Source: Alphaproteobacteria bacterium
Lineage (GTDB): Bacteria > Pseudomonadota > Alphaproteobacteria > RF32 > CAG-239
Assembly: GCA_017961285.1 (NCBI GenBank)
Contig: JAGCXO010000018.1
Location: 874 to 64,873, forward strand
Reading direction: 5' to 3'
DNA: 64,000 nt
The notes under the pieces were generated by a model, which was not told the DNA's origin, did no database searches, and saw only the letters and a program-made list of their open reading frames with translations. A program made the position numbers and the translations under genes. Shown piece by piece: positions 45 through 64,000 of the stretch; within the stretch, counting starts at the first letter, position 1; every line of letters starts with the position of its first letter.

Positions 45-2231
45 ATGACTATGATGCGAGATTTTGTGCGCTTTTGTCTGCGCTGTTTTTTCAGACTTTT
101 TAAGGTCAAATTTGAAATGCATTTTGACCTCAATCAACTCCCCAAAAAAGGCTTATACATTTCAAACCACGTTTCCTATGTTGACCCGATTGTTTTGTTT
201 GCTTTTTTACCCGGCAACCCGATTTTTGCCCTCCACGGGCAGCTTTATCGCAGCTATTGGGTTCGCTTGCTGATGAAAACCGCCGACATCATGGAATATG
301 GCAACATTGATGTTCCCGATTTGAAGCACTTAATCGCCAAAGTCAACGAAGGCCGCTTGTGTGTCATGTTCCCCGAGGGCAGAATGACACCAAACGGCAA
401 TATTATGAAAATTTATGAAGGCGCCGGACTTTTGGCCGACAAAACCGATTCTCCGGTTATTCCGATTTGGATTAACGGTCTGCAATATTGCCACTTTTCA
501 AAAACCCGCGGCCGTTTACCGCACCGCTATTTTCCAAAAGTAAAAATCGTTGTTGACGCGCCGCGCCCCTTAAAACTGAAAGACGAATTGCGCCACCAAC
601 GCAATCATATTTCTAACGAAATTTATATGATTATGCGCGAGCAAGCTTTTAACTCCATGTATAATCCACGCATGACTGTATTTACCCAACTTATAAAAGC
701 CGCCAAAATCCACGCCAAAAAAGCATTCGGCTTCAAGCGTCCGAAAGTTTTGGAAGACATAACCCGCAAACCGAAGAGCTTTAAGGATATAATGTTGGCC
801 TCTTATGTTTTGGGACGATTCTTCGCCAAAAAATCAACACATCAAGAGTCTGTAGCTATCATGCTGCCGAATTCCGTTGCCGCAATCTGCACATTTTTCG
901 GGCTCAATGCCTATGGACAAGTTCCGGTAATGATTAACTTTAGCGCCGGTGTTCAAAACATTGTCAGCGGGCTCAAAACTACACTGACCAAAAAAGTTAT
1001 CACTTCTAAAATGTTCATCAAAAAAGCCGGTTTGGAACCGGTTGTTGATGCCATAAAAGAAAACGGATTTGAAATTTATTATCTTGAAGAAGTTGCAAAA
1101 AACATCTCTTTGGGCGCAAAAATTTTGGCCTTTTTGCAATATAAGGTAAAATATGTTCCATACAAAGCCACTCCCGACGACCGCGCGGTAATTTTGTTTA
1201 CATCCGGCTCCGAGGGGGCACCAAAAGCTGTTGTATTGTCAAATCGCAACGTCATCTCCAACGTATGGCAGATTGCTACTTTTGAAACCTTGAACCGCAC
1301 CGATGTTGTATTGAACTCCATGCCGATTTTCCATAGTTTCGGATTGGTCTTAGGCACCCTTTATGCCTTGTATCAGGGCGCAAAAGTTTTCTTATACCCG
1401 TCGCCTTTGCACTTCCGCGTCATCAGCGATTTGCTCTATGAGCTTGAGGCCACGGTTATGATTGGCACCGACACATTTTTCCGCAGCTATGCCAAAATTT
1501 CTCACCCTCTGGACTTTGGATCTTTGCGTTTGTGCTATGCCGGCGCCGAGGGCGTAAAACTTGATACGCGTAACATTTTGAATGAGCGTTTGGGTGTTCG
1601 TCTCATGGAGGCTTATGGTACCACAGAATGTTCTCCGGCCGTTGCCGGCAATAATATGGTGTTCAACAAATTTGGCACCATCGGCAAATTATGCCCCGGC
1701 ATGCAGTGCCGCTTGGACAAGATTGACGGCATCGAAAAAGGCGGCGAACTCGTAGTTAAAGGTCCGAATGTTATGGCAGGATATATTTTTGCCGACAACC
1801 CTGGAGTTTTGGTTCCGCCTGAAAACGGCTGGTATCACACCGGCGATGTTGTCGAGATTGATGAAATCGGCTTTATCAGCATTAAAGACCGCATTAAACG
1901 TTTTGCAAAAATCGGTGGTGAAATGGTATCTCTGCGCGCTGTCGAAAATATGATTAACCAAGCATTTGAGGGTAAAGAGGACTTTGCTTGCGGTGTTGTC
2001 GCCATTCCACACGAACACAAAGGCGAACAAATTGTTTTGGTTACCAACGAAACAAGTTTGACAATGGATAAATTGCGCGACTTTATCAAACAAAACGGTT
2101 ATCCGGAGTTATATATGCCTCGCACGATTTTGTATAAAGACAAAATTCCGATGTCAGCCACCGGCAAAATTGATAATGTAACGTTGAAAAAAGAAGTCTT
2201 GGCTGAACTCTCCGCCAGCAACGCCGCATAA
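45..2231 (+). CDS. aas: Bifunctional lysophospholipid acyltransferase / acyl-ACP synthetase (Aas-like)
   Basis: 728-aa ORF. The N-terminus has a PlsC-type acyltransferase box (SNHVSYVDP) and MFPEGRM. The C-terminus has AMP-binding motifs (ILFTSGSEGAPKAV, YGTTE, TGD..DRIKRF). Length and architecture match E. coli Aas from memory. Confidence 0.8.
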   Translation: MTMMRDFVRFCLRCFFRLFKVKFEMHFDLNQLPKKGLYISNHVSYVDPIVLFAFLPGNPIFALHGQLYRSYWVRLLMKTADIMEYGNIDVPDLKHLIAKVNEGRLCVMFPEGRMTPNGNIMKIYEGAGLLADKTDSPVIPIWINGLQYCHFSKTRGRLPHRYFPKVKIVVDAPRPLKLKDELRHQRNHISNEIYMIMREQAFNSMYNPRMTVFTQLIKAAKIHAKKAFGFKRPKVLEDITRKPKSFKDIMLASYVLGRFFAKKSTHQESVAIMLPNSVAAICTFFGLNAYGQVPVMINFSAGVQNIVSGLKTTLTKKVITSKMFIKKAGLEPVVDAIKENGFEIYYLEEVAKNISLGAKILAFLQYKVKYVPYKATPDDRAVILFTSGSEGAPKAVVLSNRNVISNVWQIATFETLNRTDVVLNSMPIFHSFGLVLGTLYALYQGAKVFLYPSPLHFRVISDLLYELEATVMIGTDTFFRSYAKISHPLDFGSLRLCYAGAEGVKLDTRNILNERLGVRLMEAYGTTECSPAVAGNNMVFNKFGTIGKLCPGMQCRLDKIDGIEKGGELVVKGPNVMAGYIFADNPGVLVPPENGWYHTGDVVEIDEIGFISIKDRIKRFAKIGGEMVSLRAVENMINQAFEGKEDFACGVVAIPHEHKGEQIVLVTNETSLTMDKLRDFIKQNGYPELYMPRTILYKDKIPMSATGKIDNVTLKKEVLAELSASNAA

Positions 2232-5680: not shown

Positions 5681-6409
5681 TTATTTTTGTATTATCTTAT
5701 CTAAATCTGCTAAATCTTCGTAGGACAAAAGAAAAACCCCACAATTTTGAGCAAGTTGTCGTGCTGAAGAGGTATAAGTATTGTTGGTAACTACAGCCGC
5801 ATAATCTGTTTTGTAAAAGGATTTCCCAGAATTAGCTTCCTGAACAGCTTTATTCCCAACAGGTTGACTGTATAATTTACATTGAATAGCAATACTACTA
5901 CCATTTTTTTCAGCTATAACATCTATACCTTGGTCCAACGATTTTTGTGTTGTACGAGCAGACCAGCCACATTTATTAAGTATTTGTGCACATTGTTTTT
6001 CAAAATCATATGGACTAATATTAGAAGAAAAAGAAACCTCATCAATATTTACATTTTCTTTCATATTATTAACTACTTGTTCTATCAAATCTTCTTGATT
6101 GAATTCTACAATATTATTTTCTGGTTCAATGACGTTTTTAATGAAGTATCTAAGTTCTCTCTTAAAACTATCTGTTTTTATGATTCCATAATCATCTTTA
6201 TAAACTAATTGCTTAAATTTTTTTACAAGTACATCATGATATTCTGTCAATTTTGAATTAATCAAAACATTTAATCTATTTTCTTTTTCTTCAATTTCTT
6301 TTCGTTTCTTCTTCTTTTTATTATACACAAAAATACCAGCAATACACACAAATACGATTTTAATAATCCATTCAAGTACTGTAGCAAAATCATCTTTTTT
6401 CCTAGTCAT
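5681..6409 (-). CDS. Membrane-anchored Mrr-like restriction-endonuclease-fold protein
   Basis: N-terminal TM helix plus a K/E-rich stretch. The C-terminal Mrr_cat-type core reads PYDFEKQCAQIL..GIDVIAEKNGSSIAIQCKLY..VGNKAVQE..VVTNNTYTSSA. Confidence 0.65.
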   Translation of the reverse strand: MTRKKDDFATVLEWIIKIVFVCIAGIFVYNKKKKKRKEIEEKENRLNVLINSKLTEYHDVLVKKFKQLVYKDDYGIIKTDSFKRELRYFIKNVIEPENNIVEFNQEDLIEQVVNNMKENVNIDEVSFSSNISPYDFEKQCAQILNKCGWSARTTQKSLDQGIDVIAEKNGSSIAIQCKLYSQPVGNKAVQEANSGKSFYKTDYAAVVTNNTYTSSARQLAQNCGVFLLSYEDLADLDKIIQK

Positions 6410-55223: not shown

Positions 55224-55670
55224 ATGAGTGAAACACAACAACCGAATTCCGTTTCTGTCTTGGGACAATTTATCAAAGACTTATCGTTAGAAATTCCCCA
55301 TGCCCCCGAAATTTTTACCGAAGTAAAATCGGCACCGAAAGTTGATGTTAATATCGATGTAAAATCCGATTCCAAAGGCAACGACCGCTATGCCGTAACT
55401 TTACATGTTGTCATCAACGGCAAAGTTGAGGACAAAACTCTCTTTATCTTAGAGCTTTCATATATGGCTTTTGCCGAAGTAAAAGTTCCTGCCGAGCACT
55501 TGGAACCGATATTGATGATAGAAATTCCTCGGCTGATTTTTCCTTTTGCCCGCAACGTCATAACTCAATGCTTGTGCGAGGGTGGATTGCCTCCGTTTAT
55601 GCTCAATCCTATAGACTTTGTTGCTCTCTACAACGCCCGCAAACAAAGCGCCCAAGCTCCAAAGAACTAA
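55224..55670 (+). CDS. secB: Protein-export chaperone SecB
   Basis: 148 aa. VLGQFIKDLSLE..P and LIFPFARNVI. Confidence 0.9.
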   Translation: MSETQQPNSVSVLGQFIKDLSLEIPHAPEIFTEVKSAPKVDVNIDVKSDSKGNDRYAVTLHVVINGKVEDKTLFILELSYMAFAEVKVPAEHLEPILMIEIPRLIFPFARNVITQCLCEGGLPPFMLNPIDFVALYNARKQSAQAPKN

Positions 55671-55672
55671 AG

Positions 55673-55872
55673 GTCAGCCCTTGCTCGGCGCACCGGTGTC
55701 TTTATTAAAGTCACCCCTCGATTTTGCTTGCAAAATCATCCAGGGGTCTACCGATTAGTTTTTTCATTGTCATCCCTTGCTCGGCGCACAAGCGTCCGTG
55801 CATCAAGGGATCCAAACTTCAGTACTTTAGCACTGCTTCCTTATAAAAATTCGAAGACCCCTTGACCAAAAA
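55673..55872. repeat. Left-flank array of GTCAYCCCT...AGGGRTC clamp hairpins (one partial unit plus a two-hairpin module)
   Basis: Starts 2 nt after the secB stop. 55710-55872 matches 60623-60789 in the same orientation at roughly 9 of 10 positions by eye. Confidence 0.85.
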
Positions 55873-55984
55873 CTAGCGTTTTTGGAGGGGGGACATAAAG
55901 GCTAACTCGAAGATTGCTTGACCTCAGACATTCTGTCTTCGGAGCGATGACATTTATTATAATCGTCATCTTTTCATAACAAAA

Positions 55985-56003
55985 GGGGCGGAAAAACCGC
56001 CCC
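55985..56003 (-). terminator. Rho-independent terminator of the pilin-like operon
   Basis: ggggcgg-aaaaa-ccgcccc, followed on the minus strand by a T-rich run. Lies 23 nt after the stop at 56026. Confidence 0.75.
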
Positions 56004-56025
56004 CTTCATCGCAGCTTCAAAACTA

Positions 56026-58071
56026 TTACCACGGATCCCTAAATTTCAAACGTTGGTCATTAAGGCGCGTATTATAGTCATTAGTTTTCTCATAACTATT
56101 AACTACACTAGCATCATGAGATTGCTCAAAAGTCTTCAATTGATCATATTTATCAACATAATCAGAATCATATTCTACATTCGTCCTATCAAAATAGCAA
56201 TATACCGTGGCATAACCCTCTATCTCGTTTTTATAAACAGGGAACAAATTCCAAAATACTTTGTCTTGATTTGTCGCACTATGCCCGCTTGTGCCGCCGG
56301 CACCGGAATAAGAATCTTGAGTTGCATAAGCATGAGCACTACGAGCCAAATCTCCATACTGACTGGCAGGATAGATAAATCCCATAATCAATCCCCATCC
56401 ATTAAAGTCCTTTGCATTACTGGTATGATTCATATGTCCTTCATATACAGGTCTAACCTCCGAACGCAACCATGTGCTCTTTTGATAATCAAGATATATC
56501 GGCATTGCATCAGAAGCTGTGCTGCTGTTTTGGTTATAAACCTCCATTGCATCAGGCAGACTGACCTCCGGTTTTCCGTTAGTATCAATAGTCAGCTTTC
56601 CAGCCTGTGCCATAGCCCAACCGGCAGGGGTCAAAGTAATCACTTTTGCATATCCCTGAGGGCATTTTGGTGTCGGCACAAAACCGACATAAGCCGAAAC
56701 TATATCCCTTTGATTTTGTGCATCAGGAAAATCTTTAATCGGAAAATCAGGTTGGGTCCAATTTGTAACCACTCTTTCTTCATAGCTGGTATCAACCACA
56801 TAAATACCCTTGTTGATAAAGTCCGGCAAAATATCGCTCAAACGCGCACCGCCACGAGTAGTCAGTTTGATATCATGCATAACCGAGGTATAAGCCGGAT
56901 TAACTTCATATTTAGTATACAAATCACCAGCATCAGGAACCGGCATTCCGGCACCTTTTGCTACAGCCCTAGTTGCATTAATAGCATTTTGGTCTCTTCC
57001 AGCCCCCAGAAGAGAATAATTACTGATGAATCTATCTGCCGCAATATACCCCATCATTGCTTCTGTCGCAGTAGGATATGGTCCAGAGCCTGTAGTATTA
57101 TAATCTTCCAAAATCTCCTTATTATGCAAACGATGGTCTCTATTGGTCGCCAAATTAATAGAACCTTTTCTAATATAGACAGAACCATACGTTAAGGCAT
57201 CACTATCAGCATATCTGTTATCATCCTTATTATTATCAACTGCCATAATCAATTCACCCTTGGTCAAAGAGTGCTCTAAATTACGTGTCGCCCTAATCTC
57301 AAACTTACCTTTGTCGATGAACAAAGCTGCCGGATTGGCCGAATTAGAAGCATTGTTCCTAGCCCCTGGAAATTGCATATCATGGTCATAGACCGCAATA
57401 CCTCCGGCAAATCTGGTCGTAACCTTACCATATTCACCAGCACCGGGATCACCATATTCATCCGGTTTGATATTCAATACAGAACGCGTCTTAAGATCTC
57501 CAACTGGTCCGAGAACTTGACTTCTAGCGTTAGAAGCAATAGTATTTACTCCCAAAGAATCACTATTATAAACAATCTTACCGACATCAAATTGCATTCC
57601 TTCAATCATATATTGAGCTTTATTCACCTGGTTAGGTGCTGGGCTTCCTAAAGCATAAAACCTGTCTACATCCGTTTCTACAGTAGCTCCCCCATGAGGA
57701 TTATTATAAACTTGTAACATCGTATCTTGGATAGAAACAGGCATATCATCAACAAAATTCCAAAGTTGTCCCGAATCATCAAACGTCGACAAATAAATAC
57801 CTTTTTCTGCCCCCATACGGATTTCACCATATTGCGGCTCTGAATTAGTTTTTGCGAAGTAGAATTTATCAAATATACTGGTATTTCCGGCAATCAAATC
57901 AATACCGCCACCTACATTACTGGCATTAACCGTAAATCCCGGATGTTGTGAGTCGGAAGAAGCATATACCAAAGAATCTGCTGCACTATGCCCTTGTCCA
58001 TATAAACTAAACCTTGACTCACCAGCTTGAGTTTTTTCTGTCAACATAAAGAAATCACCATCAGGAGACAA
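56026..58071 (-). CDS. 681-aa ORF of unknown function, either translationally coupled to the upstream pilin-like ORF or its out-of-frame C-terminal continuation
   Basis: Opens with TTG and overlaps the upstream stop by 11 nt. Gly/Asn/Ser/Tyr-rich with no signal peptide of its own. No motif recognised. Confidence 0.6.
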   Translation of the reverse strand: MSPDGDFFMLTEKTQAGESRFSLYGQGHSAADSLVYASSDSQHPGFTVNASNVGGGIDLIAGNTSIFDKFYFAKTNSEPQYGEIRMGAEKGIYLSTFDDSGQLWNFVDDMPVSIQDTMLQVYNNPHGGATVETDVDRFYALGSPAPNQVNKAQYMIEGMQFDVGKIVYNSDSLGVNTIASNARSQVLGPVGDLKTRSVLNIKPDEYGDPGAGEYGKVTTRFAGGIAVYDHDMQFPGARNNASNSANPAALFIDKGKFEIRATRNLEHSLTKGELIMAVDNNKDDNRYADSDALTYGSVYIRKGSINLATNRDHRLHNKEILEDYNTTGSGPYPTATEAMMGYIAADRFISNYSLLGAGRDQNAINATRAVAKGAGMPVPDAGDLYTKYEVNPAYTSVMHDIKLTTRGGARLSDILPDFINKGIYVVDTSYEERVVTNWTQPDFPIKDFPDAQNQRDIVSAYVGFVPTPKCPQGYAKVITLTPAGWAMAQAGKLTIDTNGKPEVSLPDAMEVYNQNSSTASDAMPIYLDYQKSTWLRSEVRPVYEGHMNHTSNAKDFNGWGLIMGFIYPASQYGDLARSAHAYATQDSYSGAGGTSGHSATNQDKVFWNLFPVYKNEIEGYATVYCYFDRTNVEYDSDYVDKYDQLKTFEQSHDASVVNSYEKTNDYNTRLNDQRLKFRDPW

Positions 58072-59650
58072 TACGCCAGCCCCCCTGAAGTCCTATTACT
58101 GCCCCTGCACGGAATTTACCTGCATTAGCTTCATAAGCACTAACGTTACCGCCTTGGATAGTATCATTAACATACATACTACCGCTGACAGTCACTCTAT
58201 AATCTTCACCACTATTTTCAACTATTGTAGTATTTACATTTCCATTACCCATAGTAGTTTGATATAAGCGTGCCGGCCCCCCATGTTGTTGAACGGCAGT
58301 GCCTCCTACGCCAATAGTAACATAACCTTCATTACCGGTTTTATCAACCAACAAAGTCTTGTCCATCGCTTCAAGTTTATCTTGGTCAATATATAAATTC
58401 TCTATGCCATCATTCTTCTTATATCTCAGAGCAATACCACTTGCACCACCATGAGACACCTGAAATATCATTGCCTGTGTGCTAGGATTACCATATTGCA
58501 ATTCATCCACACCGAGTTTGAAAAACGCCAGAGTATTAGAAGCATATTTCATTTCCATCTTTGGCAAATTATTCATAGTAGGATCTTTTTCAACCGAAAA
58601 CCTTCGATCTATCGCTTGCAACCTACCCTGAACATTGGCACCGCCTCCATTGGTGATATACAAAGCATTATCAAGCGCATCACCATACTGATCATTTGCA
58701 AGACCACTTTCACCGGCTGTATGGGTTTTATCTGTCTCATTACCGCTTCCAACCATTCTATTTACATCAGGCGACATCACAATTTGGTTGACCATACGAA
58801 TATTGCGGGTAGTGGTATCTCTCGTTCCCAAAAACAGGTCAGTAGTCATCGCGTTCAGTGCTTGGTCATCATCATCCGGCATATCCACTCTATAAAGCAC
58901 GTTTTCATTCGTAAGCCCTTGCGAAGAAATTGGTTGCAAAGAAGAAACCACCAACGTATTCGGCTGTAACATCGGTATATCACCCTCAACCGGTGCAATA
59001 TCAGAATGCCCGATATTCCAAATTCCTTGTGTGCCCTGAACTGTCCAACCACTTCCATTAGGATCCTTATCTGCAACAGCACCATTGCTTCCGACCATGC
59101 TGGCAATACGCATTGCACGAGTGTTGTCAACCGAACTATGTTTCGGATCAGCAAACAAAAATCCAGTCAAAGTCTCTACAATCGGCTCTTTATTGGCATC
59201 TAATTGCCGTTTCAGACGAACCATAATTTTATAGTTTTCATTTAAATGATTATGAAATTTATTAGAAAAAAGCTTGGTTTCACGCATTTCCTGATTATCA
59301 ATCATCATACCATATGGCAGATAATTTCTCAGCACATTAACATCAACCACCACCGGTTTTGGATTTTCGTCATCAGGCACATTTCCGGTCAACGTAAAAA
59401 CGCTAAAATCACCGCCAAACACATCAGGATCACCGCGCGTGATTGCGGCAAAATTATCCTTCAAATAGGCATCCATCGCCGTGGCAATTGCCCTCAATTG
59501 GCTGGAGGCATTAATATCTTGCAGCTCGGTCGTGCGCTCCGCCGCCTTTTTATACAAAACAGGGGTAACCATAGAAACCAAACCCAACATTGCCAATGCT
59601 TCCACCAGCAATGTTCCTGTTTCGTTAATTTTTTTCAATATATTAGTCAT
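58061..59650 (-). CDS. Large prepilin-type protein resembling the PilV (Shufflon_N) constant region
   Basis: The N-terminus KKINETG/TLLVEALAMLGLVSMVTPVLY has Gly then Glu at +5, followed by the helix SSQLRAIATAMDAYLKDNF. Internal blocks MRIASMVGSNGAV..GWTVQGTQGIWNI and NVLYRVDMP..ALNAMTTDLFLG..NIRMVN recall R64 PilV ([22 protein letters not shown]) from memory. Confidence 0.6.
   Translation of the reverse strand: MTNILKKINETGTLLVEALAMLGLVSMVTPVLYKKAAERTTELQDINASSQLRAIATAMDAYLKDNFAAITRGDPDVFGGDFSVFTLTGNVPDDENPKPVVVDVNVLRNYLPYGMMIDNQEMRETKLFSNKFHNHLNENYKIMVRLKRQLDANKEPIVETLTGFLFADPKHSSVDNTRAMRIASMVGSNGAVADKDPNGSGWTVQGTQGIWNIGHSDIAPVEGDIPMLQPNTLVVSSLQPISSQGLTNENVLYRVDMPDDDDQALNAMTTDLFLGTRDTTTRNIRMVNQIVMSPDVNRMVGSGNETDKTHTAGESGLANDQYGDALDNALYITNGGGANVQGRLQAIDRRFSVEKDPTMNNLPKMEMKYASNTLAFFKLGVDELQYGNPSTQAMIFQVSHGGASGIALRYKKNDGIENLYIDQDKLEAMDKTLLVDKTGNEGYVTIGVGGTAVQQHGGPARLYQTTMGNGNVNTTIVENSGEDYRVTVSGSMYVNDTIQGGNVSAYEANAGKFRAGAVIGLQGGWRIVS
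58080..58085 (-). other. G6 (plus-strand C6) homopolymer at the junction of the two ORFs
   Basis: The coding strand reads CTT CAG GGG GGC TGG CGT ATT GTC TCC TGA. Removing one G gives the continuous reading ..LQGAGVLSPDGDFFMLTEK. Confidence 0.8.
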
Positions 59651-59659
59651 TGTAGCCTC

Positions 59660-60304
59660 CTATTGAATTTTGGTGATATAAACCAAACAATAATTTCCGT
59701 TACCGCTGCACATCCCATTATCTTTACCAAAATCTCTATTATTACCGATTATATATTCCGGAAGAGAATAATATGGTCTTGTGCCTTGAGAAACCACGCC
59801 TTTGCGAGTATTAAAAGTGTTATACTCATCATTTTCACCCATATAAGGATTATCAGCCCTATCAACCGAATAGCCGAGTCCGTCAACATAACCCAGCTTG
59901 TCTCTCATAGAATCCAAAATTTCGGCTCTCGGCAAACCGGTGCGATTATCCTGCCATTTTCTGGCAATCGGGCCATAGGTGATGATATAATTAAAATCGT
60001 TACCCTTACACTCTGGAACAGAGGAATATCCGTCTTCATCGAGACAATAAAGATAAGAAGAAAAATTTCCCCGATTAAAACCAAACGGGAGATATGTTTC
60101 TTCAAGCTTGTTATAATCAACCTCGCCATCTATCATATCGTTATAAGTAAAATATTTCATAACTGCGCGGTGCAGAACATACAGCTGCGTAACCTCGGCT
60201 TCGGCCTGTCTATCAAGATACAATTCCTTAATATCAGGACGTAGCGAACTGCTCAACGCCGCCAGCGCAGAAAGGAAAATTGCTATTACAACCCATAAAT
60301 ACAT
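59660..60304 (-). CDS. 214-aa membrane-anchored protein, first gene of the pilin-like operon
   Basis: aggag SD. N-terminal hydrophobic helix MYLWVVIAIFLSALAAL, then a pilin-like helix AEAEVTQLYVLHRAVMKY, but no Gly/Glu+5 processing site. Four Cys in the globular part. Confidence 0.5.
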   Translation of the reverse strand: MYLWVVIAIFLSALAALSSSLRPDIKELYLDRQAEAEVTQLYVLHRAVMKYFTYNDMIDGEVDYNKLEETYLPFGFNRGNFSSYLYCLDEDGYSSVPECKGNDFNYIITYGPIARKWQDNRTGLPRAEILDSMRDKLGYVDGLGYSVDRADNPYMGENDEYNTFNTRKGVVSQGTRPYYSLPEYIIGNNRDFGKDNGMCSGNGNYCLVYITKIQ

Positions 60305-60427: not shown

Positions 60428-60462
60428 AACCTTTTTCGAAAATCTGTAATTTTTAAAACATT

Positions 60463-60789
60463 GTCATCCCTCCAAACCATCACAAAAAAAACCTGTCATC
60501 CCTCCAAACCGTCATAAAAAAAACCTGTCATCCCTCGATTTTGCTTGCAAAAACAGTATCAAAGTCATCCCTATTTTTTCGCCCTGCGAAAAAATTCAAG
60601 GGATCTACGAATTTATTCAACTGTCATCCCTCGATTTTGCTTGCAAAATCGTCAAGGGATCTACCGATTAGTTTTTTCATCGTCATCCCTTGCTCGGCGC
60701 CCAAGCGTCCGTGTATCAAGGGATCCAAACTTCAGTGCTTTAGCACTGCTTCCTTATATAAAAACTCAAAGCCCCCTTGCCCCAAAAAT
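60463..60789. repeat. Right-flank array of six GTCATCCCT-initiated units, including the two-hairpin module shared with the left flank
   Basis: Unit starts at 60463, 60495, 60527, 60564, 60623 and 60682. Interiors differ but are self-complementary (cgattttgc/gcaaaatcg, attttttcg/cgaaaaaat, cggcgc/gcgtccg). Confidence 0.85.
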
Positions 60790-60845
60790 AAACAAAGGAA
60801 AACGCCCTCTCATCTCACGATGAAAGGGCGTTGTTTTTTTAGAGG

Positions 60846-61667
60846 CTAAGCCCTCATTCTATCGAGCCAAGCTTGAACCTTCTCTTCCGAGAGGTCAAAG
60901 TCTCCTTTGACTCCATTCGGAAGATAAAAGCTCTCCTCAATGTCATAGAGCCTCTTTATGTCGAGGTCTCTGATGTCATCGAGTTTTACTTGGCCCGTGA
61001 AAAGAGCCGCCTCAAGCCATCTCCGCTTGTGCACCCCAACATATTGCCCCTTTCCGAGCACCTTTACGCACTCTTCAGGGGTTTTTCCGGAATTGATAGC
61101 TTTTGCAAATGCGGATTTTGCAAATCCACCGTTTCCGGTGGAGTAAGCTATCATGCAACATGCAATGTACTGTTCCGGCGTGCGGAGTTTTATAGTATCC
61201 AAAAGCCGGTAAACTCCTTTTAAGTATTCACGCATTTCGGCTTTCGCCTCATCGCGTGAAATCCTTGTGCCGGGGGTTACTTTGTGCCCGCGGACACGGC
61301 TTTGACCGTATCCGACGAGCCAATTTCCGCATTTATAGGCTTCGCCCTTAAAGGACTCAACGCTACAAATGCAGTCAACGATATCATCTTCATCTGCAAA
61401 GCAGATGGAAACGATATCAGATTTTACCACTTTCGTGGTAACTGTCGTGGTAGCGGTCGTTGCCGGTGCCGTCGCTGTTGCAGAAGCTTCGGCCTTAGCA
61501 GGCGAAACTACCACCGTTGCCGTCGCAGAAGCTGCGGTCGGTGTTGTAACCACTGCGGTCAGCTCCGTCGCTGTTTCCCCGTTTTTTTCTTGCGCAGGAG
61601 AGGATAAAATCCCACGGCAACAGTATATCACTGTGATAACTGCTGCAATGAAAAAAAGCTTTTTCAT
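60846..61667 (-). CDS. Secreted GH24 (phage-type) lysozyme-like protein with a Thr/Ala-rich linker
   Basis: N-terminal signal or anchor. Low-complexity region TAVVTTPTAASATATVV..ATTATTTVTT. Lysozyme core VESFKGEAYKCGNWLVGYGQS..G..ISRDEAKAEMREYL. Confidence 0.7.
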   Translation of the reverse strand: MKKLFFIAAVITVIYCCRGILSSPAQEKNGETATELTAVVTTPTAASATATVVVSPAKAEASATATAPATTATTTVTTKVVKSDIVSICFADEDDIVDCICSVESFKGEAYKCGNWLVGYGQSRVRGHKVTPGTRISRDEAKAEMREYLKGVYRLLDTIKLRTPEQYIACCMIAYSTGNGGFAKSAFAKAINSGKTPEECVKVLGKGQYVGVHKRRWLEAALFTGQVKLDDIRDLDIKRLYDIEESFYLPNGVKGDFDLSEEKVQAWLDRMRA

Positions 61668-62940: not shown

Positions 62941-64000
62941 CTATTTCTCTTCTTTCAGCATTTTTGCAACAGTAATATAGTCAAATTTTCCACTACCCAA
63001 AACCGGAATATCCTTAATAAACACAATCTTCTTCGGCATCCACAATTCGCTCAACCCCTTTTGTTTGCAGTGTTTCTTAATATCCTCAAGCTTAGCATCG
63101 GGATTATTACATACCAGCACCAATTGCTCGCCTTTTTTCTCATCAAACAACGCCAAAACTCCAAGCAAAGTTTGCGGATAAATTTCCGCCACCGTTTGCT
63201 CAACCGCCGTCAGCGAAACCATTTCTCCGCCGACTTTTGCAAACCTCTTGGCTCTGCCCTGAATAGTAACAAATCCCTCACTATCAACTGTTACAATATC
63301 GCCTGTATCATACCAACCGTCAGACAAAGGCTGTAAAACTCCGGCTTTCTCTGCTGTCATATAACCCTGCATAATATTATCTCCCTTCACCGACAATCGT
63401 CCGCCTTCATCGATTCCCTCAACCGGCACAAGCTTATATTTTATGTCCGGCAAAAGCCTGCCGACAGTTCCTTCTTTATAATGCATCGGTGTATTAATAC
63501 TCAAAACCGGAGCAGTTTCTGTTGCTCCATATCCTTCCAAAATTCTTACCCCGAATTTTTTCATCCAAAGATCTGCCGTCGACAACTTAAGTTTTTCGCC
63601 GCCGATAACCGCATATTTAAGCGCAAAAAAGTCATATGGATTCGCCATCTTTCCATATCCGGCAAAAAACGTATCTGTGCCAAAAATCACCGTCGCCGCC
63701 GTATCATAACAAAGCTCCGGCACAATTCGATAATGTAAAGGCGAAGGATATAAAAACACCTTAACTCCGAACAACAAGGGCAACAAAGTTCCAACACTCA
63801 AACCGAAAGAGTGAAACATCGGCAAGGCATTAAAAACAACATCACTCGCCCCAAAAGGTATTACACTTGCAATTTGGTATCGATTCGCCTGCAAATTGCG
63901 ATGCGACAACAACACCGCTTTCGGTGTTCCTTCCGAACCGGAGGTAAAAAGCACGACTGCAGTTTTATCAGCTTTTTTCTGCGGCATTTTTTTGAGATAA
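62941..64000 (-). CDS. Second Aas-like acyl-ACP synthetase / AMP-binding protein (5' end beyond the window)
   Basis: VLFTSGSEGTPKAV, YGATE, TGD..GRAKRF. The frame stays open to the window edge. Clear paralog of the ORF at 45-2231. Confidence 0.8.
   Translation of the reverse strand, partial: YLKKMPQKKADKTAVVLFTSGSEGTPKAVLLSHRNLQANRYQIASVIPFGASDVVFNALPMFHSFGLSVGTLLPLLFGVKVFLYPSPLHYRIVPELCYDTAATVIFGTDTFFAGYGKMANPYDFFALKYAVIGGEKLKLSTADLWMKKFGVRILEGYGATETAPVLSINTPMHYKEGTVGRLLPDIKYKLVPVEGIDEGGRLSVKGDNIMQGYMTAEKAGVLQPLSDGWYDTGDIVTVDSEGFVTIQGRAKRFAKVGGEMVSLTAVEQTVAEIYPQTLLGVLALFDEKKGEQLVLVCNNPDAKLEDIKKHCKQKGLSELWMPKKIVFIKDIPVLGSGKFDYITVAKMLKEEK

What the first reader, a model, noticed from the sequence alone, without database searches (positions are those of the whole stretch)
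56026..60304. Orphan three-ORF locus with a giant PilV-like prepilin-type protein and no pilus machinery in view
The 529-aa ORF has a class-III (prepilin) signal signature: a short basic leader ending in Gly (KKINETG), then TLLVE with Glu at +5 and a ~20-residue hydrophobic helix. An amphipathic helix (SSQLRAIATAMDAYLKDNF) follows. Further in, MRIASMVGSNGAV..GWTVQGTQGIWNI and NVLYRVDMPDDDDQALNAMTTDLFLG..NIRMVN resemble, as far as I recall, the constant region of type IVb thin-pilus tip adhesins (PilV of IncI1 R64 and Salmonella: ..[22 protein letters not shown]..).

The context is unlike any shufflon or pil operon. The protein is far larger than PilV. A 681-aa Gly/Asn/Tyr-rich ORF with no recognisable domain follows it, and a 214-aa membrane-anchored protein with a pilin-like helix but no processing site precedes it. 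I see no major pilin, prepilin peptidase, ATPase, secretin or Rci recombinase anywhere in the 64 kb. The operon has its own SD sequences, a strong terminator and repeat-bounded edges. It could be a surface fibre or adhesin module that depends on a type IV filament machine encoded elsewhere, or a new use of the prepilin fold.
Basis: partly seen in the sequence, partly recalled or inferred. Interest (0 to 1): 0.8.

Follow-up and report, generated by a model that had tools for sequence, protein, structure and literature searches.

The report
Giant PilV-like pilin, frameshifted here
The "three-ORF locus" is really a two-gene operon from an uncultured gut alphaproteobacterium: a small leaderless pilin-like protein plus one 1,207-residue relative of the PilV pilus-tip adhesin, which a single extra G splits in two in this copy. 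The family is large, uncharacterised and never sits next to pilus machinery.

Summary
The sequence features are real, but the gene count is wrong. The 529-aa and 681-aa ORFs are one gene, split by a +1 G in a G5 tract (window 58080-58085). Three near-identical assemblies of the same strain carry the intact 1,207-aa ORF, and all homologues are single proteins of 900-1,400 aa.

The N-terminal ~300 aa are homologous to the PilV (Shufflon_N) constant region: hhalign gives 98.7% probability, E 1.6e-16, against an annotated PilV. The prepilin Gly-1 and Glu+5 are invariant across the family. After this domain come a variable Gly-rich stalk and a strongly conserved ~350-aa C-terminal domain of no known family.

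The 214-aa upstream gene is a conserved partner (85 of 89 loci, 12 nt upstream). It is itself a remote, leaderless pilin-like paralogue.

The family has at least 325 clusters at 50% identity. It was found only in uncultured gut Alphaproteobacteria, and no pilus machinery lies within about 7-10 kb of the pair in any of 97 loci.

Most likely this is a chromosomal, oversized type IVb-style minor pilin or tip adhesin served by a machine encoded elsewhere. That dependence could not be tested here. I rate it a new variant of a known kind, of moderate interest.

The parts
59660..60304 (-). Small partner gene (214 aa). It has an N-terminal membrane helix with no leader, no Gly-1 and no Glu+5, and 4 Cys. 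It is a remote paralogue of the N-terminal half of the pilin domain.
   Evidence: ORF. Present 12 nt upstream on the same strand in 85 of 89 loci. 99 homologues, all hypothetical, with no Pfam or PDB match. Invariant residues M1 Y2 W4 A8 F10 D24 C87 W117 P125 G144 C199 C206. hhalign against the giant family: probability 81%, E 1.2e-5, including a shared YLPxGF motif. Among 18 type IVb operon proteins only PilV gave a hit.
56026..59650 (-). One gene for a 1,207-aa PilV-class prepilin-type protein. In this window a +1 frameshift makes it read as 529-aa and 681-aa ORFs.
   Evidence: Homologues are single proteins of 900-1,400 aa. P0001 reads straight through the junction. The fused ORF is 1,207 aa. 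It matches the intact allele of L092 at all but one residue; L093 and L094 also carry an intact 1,207-aa ORF.
59615..59650 (-). Class III (prepilin) leader, MTNILKKINETG, ending in Gly-1. The mature end would be TLLVE, with Glu at +5.
   Evidence: G12 and E17 are invariant in 41 aligned homologues. The motif G-[ST]-[LM]-[LM]-[VI]-E-A-[LM]-A-M-L occurs in 83 of 89 ORFs, with a modal leader of 11 residues plus Gly.
58751..59614 (-). PilV / Shufflon_N-like pilin domain (about aa 13-300): a long alpha-1 helix followed by a beta-sheet.
   Evidence: hhalign of the family profile against annotated PilV of pRMAN01: probability 98.7%, E 1.6e-16. tblastn against plasmids hit only pilV. PF04917 is matched by homologues P0037 (37.6 bits) and P0031 (31.9 bits). 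AF2 model has pLDDT 73.5, helix 2-65 and then strands.
58080..58085 (-). G6 homopolymer (C6 on the + strand). The extra G causes the +1 frameshift at codon 523/524.
   Evidence: All five other same-strain assemblies covering this site have G5. It is one of only four G/C runs of 6 or more in the 64 kb. The tract is absent at the equivalent position in the three more distant relatives examined (L005, L006, L008).
57067..58750 (-). Variable Gly/Asn/Ser-rich central stalk (about aa 300-860 of the fused protein).
   Evidence: Poorly conserved columns in A1 and A3. Composition. In homologues this region gives faint matches to bactofilin, left-handed beta-helix domains and phage tail-fibre families and a weak match to Bdellovibrio fibre Bd2133 (E 0.076). 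The window protein itself has no such hits.
56026..57066 (-). Strongly conserved C-terminal domain (fused aa 861-1207). It holds the invariant block NPAYTSVMHDIKLTTRGGARLSDILPDFINKGIY and the only two Cys of the protein (C996, C1151).
   Evidence: About 60 invariant columns. Cys positions. AF2 gives a beta-rich core with pLDDT 80-94. The top five Foldseek PDB hits are the type IVb minor pilins TcpB and CofB, but they are not significant (E 0.08-1.1). A 24-column motif, [FY][VI]PxPxCPxG..TPA, is shared with the PilV C-terminus (probability 75%).
55978..56006 (-). Intrinsic terminator hairpin after the stop codon of the giant gene.
   Evidence: Read directly: GGGGGCGGTTTTTCCGCCCCTTTTGTT. The consensus scan did not list it.
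60623..60762 (.). Upstream copy of the 136-140-nt direct repeat. The region 60455-60762 also holds 32- and 96-bp reiterated units with the motif GTCATCCC.
   Evidence: The 96-bp unit is present in 2 or 3 copies among same-strain assemblies.
55710..55849 (.). Downstream copy of the direct repeat (94% identical), between secB and the end of the giant gene.

Best explanation
The locus is a two-gene operon.

Gene 2 encodes a 1,207-residue prepilin-type protein with three parts. The first ~300 residues are a homologue of the constant (Shufflon_N) pilin domain of PilV, the tip adhesin and minor pilin of type IVb conjugative thin pili. Next comes a ~550-residue variable, Gly-rich stalk. Last is a ~350-residue conserved, disulphide-containing C-terminal head domain.

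Gene 1 encodes a small membrane-anchored, leaderless pilin-like paralogue that always accompanies gene 2.

Inferred mechanism:
1. The giant protein inserts into the inner membrane through its class III signal.
2. A prepilin peptidase encoded elsewhere cuts it after Gly12.
3. Like TcpB, CofB and PilV, it is incorporated at the start, and so at the tip, of a type IV filament. The head is held far from the cell on the stalk and acts as an adhesin or receptor-binding module in the animal gut.
4. The small partner, which lacks Glu5, probably pairs with the giant's N-terminal helix as a cap, chaperone or initiation partner.

In this window the gene carries a +1 G insertion. It therefore yields at most a PilV-sized 529-aa pilin without the head. 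This is an off or truncated allele, or possibly an assembly error.

Shown: one gene rather than two, homology to PilV, the conserved processing motif, the conserved partner, and the absence of nearby machinery.
Inferred: cleavage, incorporation into a filament, tip location, adhesion, and the partner's role.
For: One gene, not two:
-.

Homology to PilV:
- hhalign gives 98.7% probability, E 1.6e-16.
- The only plasmid tblastn hits are pilV: 3 of 3 for the window protein. For family member P0037, 782 records match and all 25 listed are pilV, best E 9e-11.
- PF04917 scores above its gathering threshold in P0037 and P0031.
- Gly-1, Glu+5, YLPxGF and LYR..LN.M.T..MG..NI align residue for residue with IncK2/Z and Ralstonia PilV.

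Selection on the processing site:
- G12 and E17 are invariant.
- The motif is present in 83 of 89 ORFs.

Pilin-like fold:
- The AF2 model has a helix at 2-65 followed by a beta-sheet.

C-terminal head:
- Two invariant Cys.
- The top Foldseek hits are all type IVb tip minor pilins, TcpB and CofB. This is concordant but not significant.
- A motif is shared with the PilV C-terminus.

Partner:
-.

The gene is functional in the lineage:
- It is intact in 71 of the 72 species-representative loci where both end motifs could be scored.

Minor pilins at pilus tips:
- PilV is a minor pilin of the TP114 pilus (PMC9045228 abstract).
- TcpB initiates assembly (PMC5207764 title).
Against: - No prepilin peptidase, assembly ATPase, platform protein, secretin or major pilin is present in the 64-kb window or within about 7-10 kb of the pair in 96 related loci (1.65 Mb in total). 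Whether these genomes have any type IV filament machine is unknown.
- The window protein itself does not reach any Pfam or NCBIfam model.
- Foldseek with the N-terminal model found no solved pilin.
- The TcpB and CofB matches for the head are statistically insignificant.
- The most conserved block of the head is modelled with low confidence (pLDDT 37-44).
- There is no shufflon.
- Frequent adjacency to flagellar genes in relatives hints at a different functional link.
Confidence: 0.6

Rival explanations
1. The fibre works without a type IV machine, or is coupled to the flagellum. The class III-like N-terminus serves only as a signal anchor. The giant and small proteins form a membrane-anchored envelope or surface structure that needs no type IV filament machine. 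It may be co-regulated with, or physically tied to, the flagellar apparatus. This would be a new use of the prepilin fold.
For: - No machinery lies near the pair in any of 97 loci.
- The pair is divergently adjacent to fliL, fliM, fliN, DUF6468 and MotE-like genes in about 55% of loci. This holds in two otherwise different wider contexts.
- The partner has no cleavage site.
Against: - Invariant Gly-1 and Glu+5 across the family are hard to explain without peptidase cleavage and helix packing in a filament. That rests on established type IV pilin biology.
- There is clear homology to a genuine pilus-tip pilin.
- Synteny within one bacterial order may simply be inherited.
- The window copy and its closest relatives (L005, L011, L021) are not next to flagellar genes.
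Confidence: 0.15
2. The split is an assembly or sequencing artefact. The organism carries the intact 1,207-aa gene, and the extra G is a consensus error at a homopolymer.
For: - All five other same-strain assemblies covering the site have G5.
- The lesion sits in one of only four G/C runs of 6 or more in the 64 kb.
Against: - Other long genes scanned in the window gave full-length Pfam domain matches, for example DnaA, DnaX, PBP2 and SecY. The large polA-, gyrB- and ileS-sized ORFs are unbroken (gene names inferred from the N-terminal sequences, not tested). The assembly is therefore not generally indel-prone.
- Two other same-strain assemblies carry different disruptive lesions in the same 306-nt stretch: a TGA at codon 518 in L091 and a 14-bp deletion at codon 420 in L095. 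This points to real null or truncating polymorphism in the population.
Confidence: 0.3
3. The locus holds three independent genes, as first described: a 529-aa PilV-like pilin, a separate 681-aa Gly/Asn/Tyr-rich protein and a 214-aa anchor protein.
For: The ORF calls in this window. The 681-aa ORF has a possible TTG start.
Against: - Every homologue is a single polypeptide across the junction.
- The intact 1,207-aa allele is present in the same strain.
- The breakpoint is a 1-nt insertion.
Confidence: 0.02
4. The giant protein is a phage-derived tail fibre or a predatory-type fibre (MAT-like) that the bacterium has domesticated, rather than a pilus component.
For: - The stalk regions of homologues give faint hits to PHROG tail-fibre and unknown-function families and to Bdellovibrio Bd2133 (E 0.076).
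- A phage-type lysozyme gene lies upstream.
Against: - No relative was found in 2.9 million viral contigs.
- The window proteins give no PHROG hit.
- No significant structural match was found in BFVD.
- The lysozyme neighbour is not conserved next to the module and is separated from it by a terminator.
- The N-terminus is a pilin, not a fibre attachment domain.
Confidence: 0.03

Closest known systems
PilV, minor pilin and tip adhesin of IncI1/IncI2/IncK type IVb conjugative thin pili (R64, TP114; Pfam PF04917 Shufflon_N)
   Same: - Short basic leader with Gly-1 and Glu+5.
- Homologous ~300-aa constant pilin domain, with shared motifs YLPxGF, GxxGxW and LYR..LN.M.T..MG..NI.
- A short shared C-terminal motif around a conserved Cys.
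   Different: - 1,207 aa against about 420-510 aa.
- A ~550-aa stalk and a family-specific ~350-aa head instead of shufflon-switched C-terminal segments.
- No sfx repeats or Rci recombinase.
- Chromosomal, in uncultured gut Alphaproteobacteria, not on a conjugative plasmid.
- Not in a pil operon (compare).
- Paired with a leaderless pilin-like partner.
TcpB (Vibrio cholerae TCP) and CofB (ETEC CFA/III), type IVb minor pilins that form tip trimers and initiate assembly
   Same: - Same overall design: an N-terminal pilin domain, a linker, and a beta-rich C-terminal domain.
- They are the top, though insignificant, Foldseek hits for the head.
- This supports a working model of tip location and initiation.
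   Different: - No detectable sequence homology was tested or found here.
- TM-scores are only 0.15-0.29.
- TcpB and CofB are encoded inside their pilus operons.
- They are about 420-520 aa.
PilY1/PilC and MshQ, large (~1,000-1,200 aa) tip-associated adhesins of type IVa and MSHA pili
   Same: Similar size and a presumed role as a distal adhesin at a pilus tip (PMC13533445).
   Different: They are not pilins. They have no class III signal and dock by beta-strand addition onto GspK-like minor pilins. Here the adhesin and the pilin are one polypeptide. There is no Pfam match to PilC/PilY1 families.
GspK/PilX-type minor pilins lacking Glu5 (comparison for the small partner only)
   Same: The small partner has a pilin-like N-terminal helix without Glu5, like the tip-most subunits of initiation complexes. 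This is established knowledge of T2SS and type IVa pilus tip complexes.
   Different: The partner has no leader and no Gly-1, so it cannot be processed by a prepilin peptidase. It has no sequence match to any known family.

Membership tests
PilV / Shufflon_N (PF04917) type IVb minor pilin | Prepilin (class III) leader: short basic leader, Gly at -1, Glu at +5, hydrophobic alpha-1 N-terminal segment | tested here: met
   The sequence is MTNILKKINETG|TLLVEALAML. G12 and E17 are invariant. The motif occurs in 83 of 89 ORFs. It aligns with the G|FILLE of E. coli PilV.
PilV / Shufflon_N (PF04917) type IVb minor pilin | The window protein itself matches the Pfam Shufflon_N model or NCBIfam PilV models at their curated thresholds | tested here: not met
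   The 529-aa ORF has no Pfam or NCBIfam hit at E <= 1. Only 4 of 41 family members hit PF04917 at E < 1e-3. P0037 and P0031 score above the gathering threshold.
PilV / Shufflon_N (PF04917) type IVb minor pilin | Profile-level homology of the N-terminal ~300 aa to the PilV constant region | tested here: met
   hhalign gives 98.7% probability, E 1.6e-16, over 248 columns. tblastn hits in plasmids are exclusively pilV.
PilV / Shufflon_N (PF04917) type IVb minor pilin | Alternative C-terminal segments switched by a shufflon (inverted sfx repeats plus Rci recombinase) | tested here: not met
   tblastn with Rci found nothing. No recombinase appears among the Pfam-scanned ORFs. Only two weak inverted repeats were found, both inside the coding sequence and flanking no gene segments. 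The C-terminus is conserved, not variable.
PilV / Shufflon_N (PF04917) type IVb minor pilin | Encoded in a type IVb pil operon with a major pilin, A24 peptidase, ATPase, platform protein and secretin | tested here: not met
   None of these is present in the window or in 96 related loci. For contrast, see the plasmid operons.
Type IVb tip minor pilins (TcpB/CofB class) | Pilin-fold N-terminal domain | tested here: inconclusive
   AF2 secondary structure is pilin-like: helix 2-65 followed by a beta-sheet, pLDDT 73.5. Foldseek against the PDB found no significant match.
Type IVb tip minor pilins (TcpB/CofB class) | C-terminal beta-sandwich or lectin-like domain similar to TcpB or CofB | tested here: inconclusive
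   The top five PDB hits are TcpB and CofB, but with E 0.08-1.1 and TM 0.15-0.29.
Type IVb tip minor pilins (TcpB/CofB class) | Homotrimer at the pilus tip, initiates assembly, cleaved by a prepilin peptidase | not testable with these tools
   This needs multimer modelling or experiments.
Tad pseudopilins TadE/TadF/TadG (PF07811, PF13400) | Match to TadE-like or Tad N-terminal models | tested here: not met
   No Pfam hit at E <= 1. None appeared among 41 family members at E < 1e-3.
PilY1/PilC tip adhesins | Match to the PilC/PilY1 beta-propeller domain, and no pilin N-terminus | tested here: not met
   No Pfam hit. The protein has a pilin N-terminus.
Bactofilin (PF04519) | Bactofilin beta-helix domain above the gathering threshold | tested here: not met
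   Only sub-threshold hits were found, in the stalks of 4 of 41 homologues. The window protein has none.

The most novel reading that the evidence does not exclude
The giant pilin and its leaderless partner form a self-sufficient or flagellum-linked surface fibre in a lineage that has no type IV filament machine. This would be a repurposed PilV fold. Its invariant C-terminal domain would be a new host-binding or cell-binding module, under strong within-host selection to be switched off. Evidence that leaves this open: three independent lesions within 306 nt in near-clonal populations, a copy-number-variable repeat array in the promoter region, and flanking direct repeats.
Probability: 0.15. 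Interest if true: 0.85.

Novelty: new variant of a known kind. Interest (0 to 1): 0.5.

Why it matters
PilV-type adhesins are known from conjugative plasmids of enterobacteria, where they choose mating partners. This result shows a large, unannotated chromosomal branch of that family. It has at least 325 clusters at 50% identity and was found in 277 species-level genomes, all uncultured gut Alphaproteobacteria from humans, ruminants and poultry. Members are two to three times the usual size. They have a new invariant head domain and a dedicated pilin-like partner.

If the protein is a pilus-tip adhesin, it is a prime candidate for how these poorly known gut bacteria attach to host surfaces, to other cells or to particles. 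The co-existing intact and broken alleles suggest it is under selection in vivo.

It also gives type IV pilus researchers a natural example of an adhesin fused to its own minor pilin at the scale of PilY1.

Tried and rejected
- Pfam, NCBIfam and PHROGs on the three window ORFs gave no hits.
- PDB sequence searches with family profiles found nothing significant. The best hits were Bd2133 at E 0.076 and a tyrosine phosphatase at E 0.22.
- Foldseek with the N-terminal model against the PDB gave only noise.
- Foldseek with the C-terminal model against BFVD gave noise.
- A scan of viral contigs for relatives found none.
- hhalign of the small partner against the 160-aa gene upstream of Ralstonia pilV showed no homology. 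hhalign against 16 other type IVb operon proteins also found none.
- I tested whether the G tract is a conserved phase-variation site. It is absent at the equivalent position in the three relatives examined, so I rejected this as a family feature.
- Programmed frameshifting is rejected because intact alleles exist.
- Rfam found nothing in the repeat-rich flanks.
- Literature searches for PilV/shufflon in Alphaproteobacteria and for pili or flagella in RF32 (my own label for this gut lineage, not a tool result) returned nothing relevant.
- I could not determine whether these genomes encode a prepilin peptidase or a type IV filament machine.

Full report
**What is in the sequence**

Three minus-strand ORFs sit between secB (55224-55670, + strand) and a lysozyme-like gene, a LysR regulator and tRNA-Ser: 59660-60304 (214 aa), 58061-59650 (529 aa) and 56026-58071 (681 aa, TTG start). 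The 529-aa ORF begins MTNILKKINETG|TLLVEALAMLGLVSMVTPVLY. That is a short basic leader with Gly at -1, Glu at +5 and one hydrophobic segment. No other ORF in the 64 kb has such a motif. G+C content is like the rest of the window. Elsewhere the window holds housekeeping genes around the replication origin, including dnaA, recF, dnaX, secY, PBP2, MreC and RodA.

**The 529-aa and 681-aa ORFs are one gene**

- The closest homologue, P0001, runs without interruption from the 529-aa part into the 681-aa part.
- All full-length homologues are single proteins of about 900-1,400 aa.
- The two frames meet at a run of six G (58080-58085). Removing one G gives a continuous 1,207-aa ORF.
- The small protein is 100% identical to P0156, from an Alphaproteobacteria MAG with locus tag J6Y53_02335. 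Eight other assemblies of essentially the same strain (at least 99.3% DNA identity) were retrieved.
- Three of these (L092, L093, L094) encode the intact 1,207-aa protein. My reconstruction differs from the L092 allele at one residue. All five assemblies that cover the site have G5.
- Two others carry different lesions nearby. L091 has GTA to TGA at codon 518, within four clustered substitutions. L095 has a 14-bp deletion at codon 420.
- Three independent lesions within 306 nt of a 3,624-nt gene have a chance probability of about 0.02 (my calculation, 3r^2 - 2r^3).
- Of 80 species-representative loci, 72 could be scored for both end motifs. The gene is intact in 71 of them. The family is therefore under purifying selection, and the breaks are local to this strain population.
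- The G tract is absent at the equivalent position in the three relatives examined, L005, L006 and L008.
- I cannot exclude that the window's extra G is a consensus error. The two other lesions argue for real loss-of-function or truncating polymorphism.

**What the giant protein is**

- Direct Pfam and NCBIfam scans of the window ORFs are empty. Family members P0037 and P0031 exceed the gathering threshold of PF04917 (Shufflon_N), and 4 of 41 members hit it at E < 1e-3.
- A tblastn of the window's first 340 aa against 72,556 plasmids returned three weak hits, all annotated pilV.
- Family member P0037 hit 782 plasmid records. All 25 listed are pilV, with a best E of 9e-11.
- hhalign of the family profile against annotated PilV of Ralstonia plasmid pRMAN01 gives 98.7% probability, E 1.6e-16, over 248 columns.
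- In a multiple alignment with E. coli IncK2/Z PilV, the cleavage Gly, the +5 Glu, YLPxGF, GxxGxW and LYR..LN.M.T..MG..NI all line up.
- In both plasmids pilV sits in a full type IVb operon. In the E. coli IncK2/Z plasmid this includes an annotated major pilin, an A24 peptidase, a lytic transglycosylase, and Rci downstream.
- G12 and E17 are invariant in 41 homologues. The motif G-[ST]-[LM]-[LM]-[VI]-E-A-[LM]-A-M-L occurs in 83 of 89 ORFs.
- The AF2 model of residues 1-340 (pLDDT 73.5) has a 64-residue N-terminal helix followed by a beta-sheet, the pilin layout. Foldseek found no significant PDB neighbour.

**Stalk and head**

Residues of about 300-860 are poorly conserved and Gly/Asn/Ser-rich. 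In some homologues this region gives faint beta-helix, bactofilin or tail-fibre signals.

The last ~350 residues are very strongly conserved, with about 60 invariant columns. They include the block NPAYTSVMHDIKLTTRGGARLSDILPDFINKGIY and the only two Cys of the protein. AF2 gives a beta-rich core with pLDDT 80-94, but the invariant block is modelled poorly (pLDDT 37-44). That might mean the block orders only in an oligomer or a complex; this is inference.

The five best Foldseek PDB hits are all the type IVb tip minor pilins TcpB and CofB. However, E is 0.08-1.1 and TM is 0.15-0.29, so this is concordant but not evidence on its own. A 24-column motif around the first Cys, [FY][VI]PxPxCPxG..TPA, is shared with the C-terminus of Ralstonia PilV (hhalign 75%). 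There are no viral relatives.

**The partner**

The 214-aa gene lies 9 nt upstream here and a median of 12 nt upstream in 85 of 89 loci, always on the same strand. It has 99 homologues, all hypothetical, and no Pfam or PDB match. Its N-terminus (M1-Y2-x-W4-V5), A8, F10, D24 and the cysteines C87, C199 and C206 are invariant. The window protein has four Cys, at 87, 99, 199 and 206.

hhalign against the giant family gives 81% probability, E 1.2e-5. Residues 6-78 of the partner align to residues 16-118 of the giant, including YLPxGF. Among 18 proteins from two type IVb operons only PilV gave a signal, at 46-52% probability. The partner is therefore a remote, leaderless, Glu5-less pilin-like paralogue.

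**Context and distribution**

- The family has 1,080 clusters at 50% identity with E <= 1e-3, and 325 with E <= 1e-30.
- It was found in 277 species-representative genomes. All 80 listed are uncultured gut Alphaproteobacteria MAGs from human, ruminant, poultry and other animal hosts, labelled for example 'uncultured Azospirillum', Candidatus Scatocola or CAG:495. The best match to the window is only 56% identical.
- No type IVb machinery protein has any tblastn hit in the window plus 96 loci (1.65 Mb), and none appears among the conserved neighbour clusters. The module is consistently separate from any machine.
- In about 55% of loci the pair is divergently adjacent to fliL, fliM, fliN, DUF6468 and MotE-like genes. 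This holds in two different wider contexts. It is not so in the window or its nearest relatives.
- In the window the operon has its own Shine-Dalgarno sequences and a strong terminator.
- It is bracketed by 136-140-nt direct repeats that occur nowhere else in the 64 kb.
- A 96-bp unit upstream of the operon varies between 2 and 3 copies among same-strain assemblies.

**Mechanism**

Best-supported reading (confidence about 0.6): this is a chromosomal, oversized PilV/TcpB/CofB-style minor pilin. A prepilin peptidase encoded elsewhere cuts it after Gly12. It is then placed at the tip of a type IV filament, where the stalk presents the conserved head as an adhesin. The small partner assists as a cap, chaperone or initiation partner.

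- Shown: gene structure, homology, the conserved processing motif, the conserved partner, and the absence of nearby machinery.
- Inferred: cleavage, assembly, tip location, adhesion.

The truncated products (419-529 aa) are about the size of canonical PilV. The lesions might therefore remove the head while keeping a minor pilin that can still assemble. This is speculative.

The main rival (about 0.15) is a fibre that needs no type IV machine or is linked to the flagellum. It would gain weight only if complete genomes of this lineage lack a prepilin peptidase and a type IV ATPase, which I could not test.

**Verdict**

The locus is two genes, not three, and 'orphan' status is a stable trait of a large uncharacterised family rather than a peculiarity of this window. 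I rate it a new variant of a known kind, with interest 0.5.

Noticed in passing
window 58080-58391; loci L091 (codon 518) and L095 (codon 420): Three independent disruptive lesions lie within 306 nt in near-clonal assemblies (at least 99.3% identical): +1 G, a TGA nonsense codon, and a 14-bp deletion. Three other assemblies are intact. The truncated products are about the size of canonical PilV. This suggests in-vivo selection against the distal part of the protein, or a mutational hotspot.
   Followed up: partly
window 55710-55849 and 60623-60762; 60455-60762: Direct repeats of 136-140 nt (94% identical) bracket the operon and occur nowhere else in the 64 kb. The upstream flank holds reiterated 32- and 96-bp units with the motif GTCATCCC. 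The 96-bp unit is present in 2 or 3 copies among same-strain assemblies. There is no Rfam match. These could be a mobile-cassette scar, a site for deletion by recombination, or an expression-tuning array.
   Followed up: partly
related loci L001-L004, L006-L009, L012-L039 (e.g. L002:6881-9923): In about 55% of 89 loci the pair is transcribed divergently from flagellar genes (fliL, fliM or fliN, DUF6468, a MotE-like gene, a 1,032-aa TPR protein). This holds in two otherwise different wider gene orders. It is not the case in the window.
   Followed up: partly
related loci, e.g. L003:12918-13688: A 256-aa signal-peptide protein of no known family lies about 140 nt downstream of the giant gene, usually on the same strand (about 80% of cases), in 47 loci. 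It is absent from the window. Its position recalls the secreted factors (TcpF, CofJ) that bind type IVb minor pilins, but I did not test this.
   Followed up: no
window 60846-61667 (- strand): The upstream neighbour has a membrane anchor, a Thr/Ala-rich linker and a phage-type lysozyme domain (PF00959, with a weak match to GTA endolysin BgtA). A 14-bp-stem terminator at 60801-60832 separates it from the operon. It is not conserved next to the module in relatives.
   Followed up: partly
window 5681-6409 (-) and 29594-30529 (+): There is an Mrr-type restriction endonuclease domain protein and, 23 kb away, an N6/N4 DNA methylase. Both sit among housekeeping genes.
   Followed up: no
window 45-2231 (+) and 62941-63987 (-): Genes with an acyltransferase plus AMP-binding domain architecture lie at both ends of the window. 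The second is the 3' part of a 1,120-aa MFS-acyltransferase-AMP-binding gene, as seen in L091.
   Followed up: no
locus L077 (Proteobacteria bacterium CAG:495, HF995322.1): This is the only other species-representative locus in which the N- and C-terminal motifs of the giant gene lie in different frames, so it may also be frameshifted.
   Followed up: no
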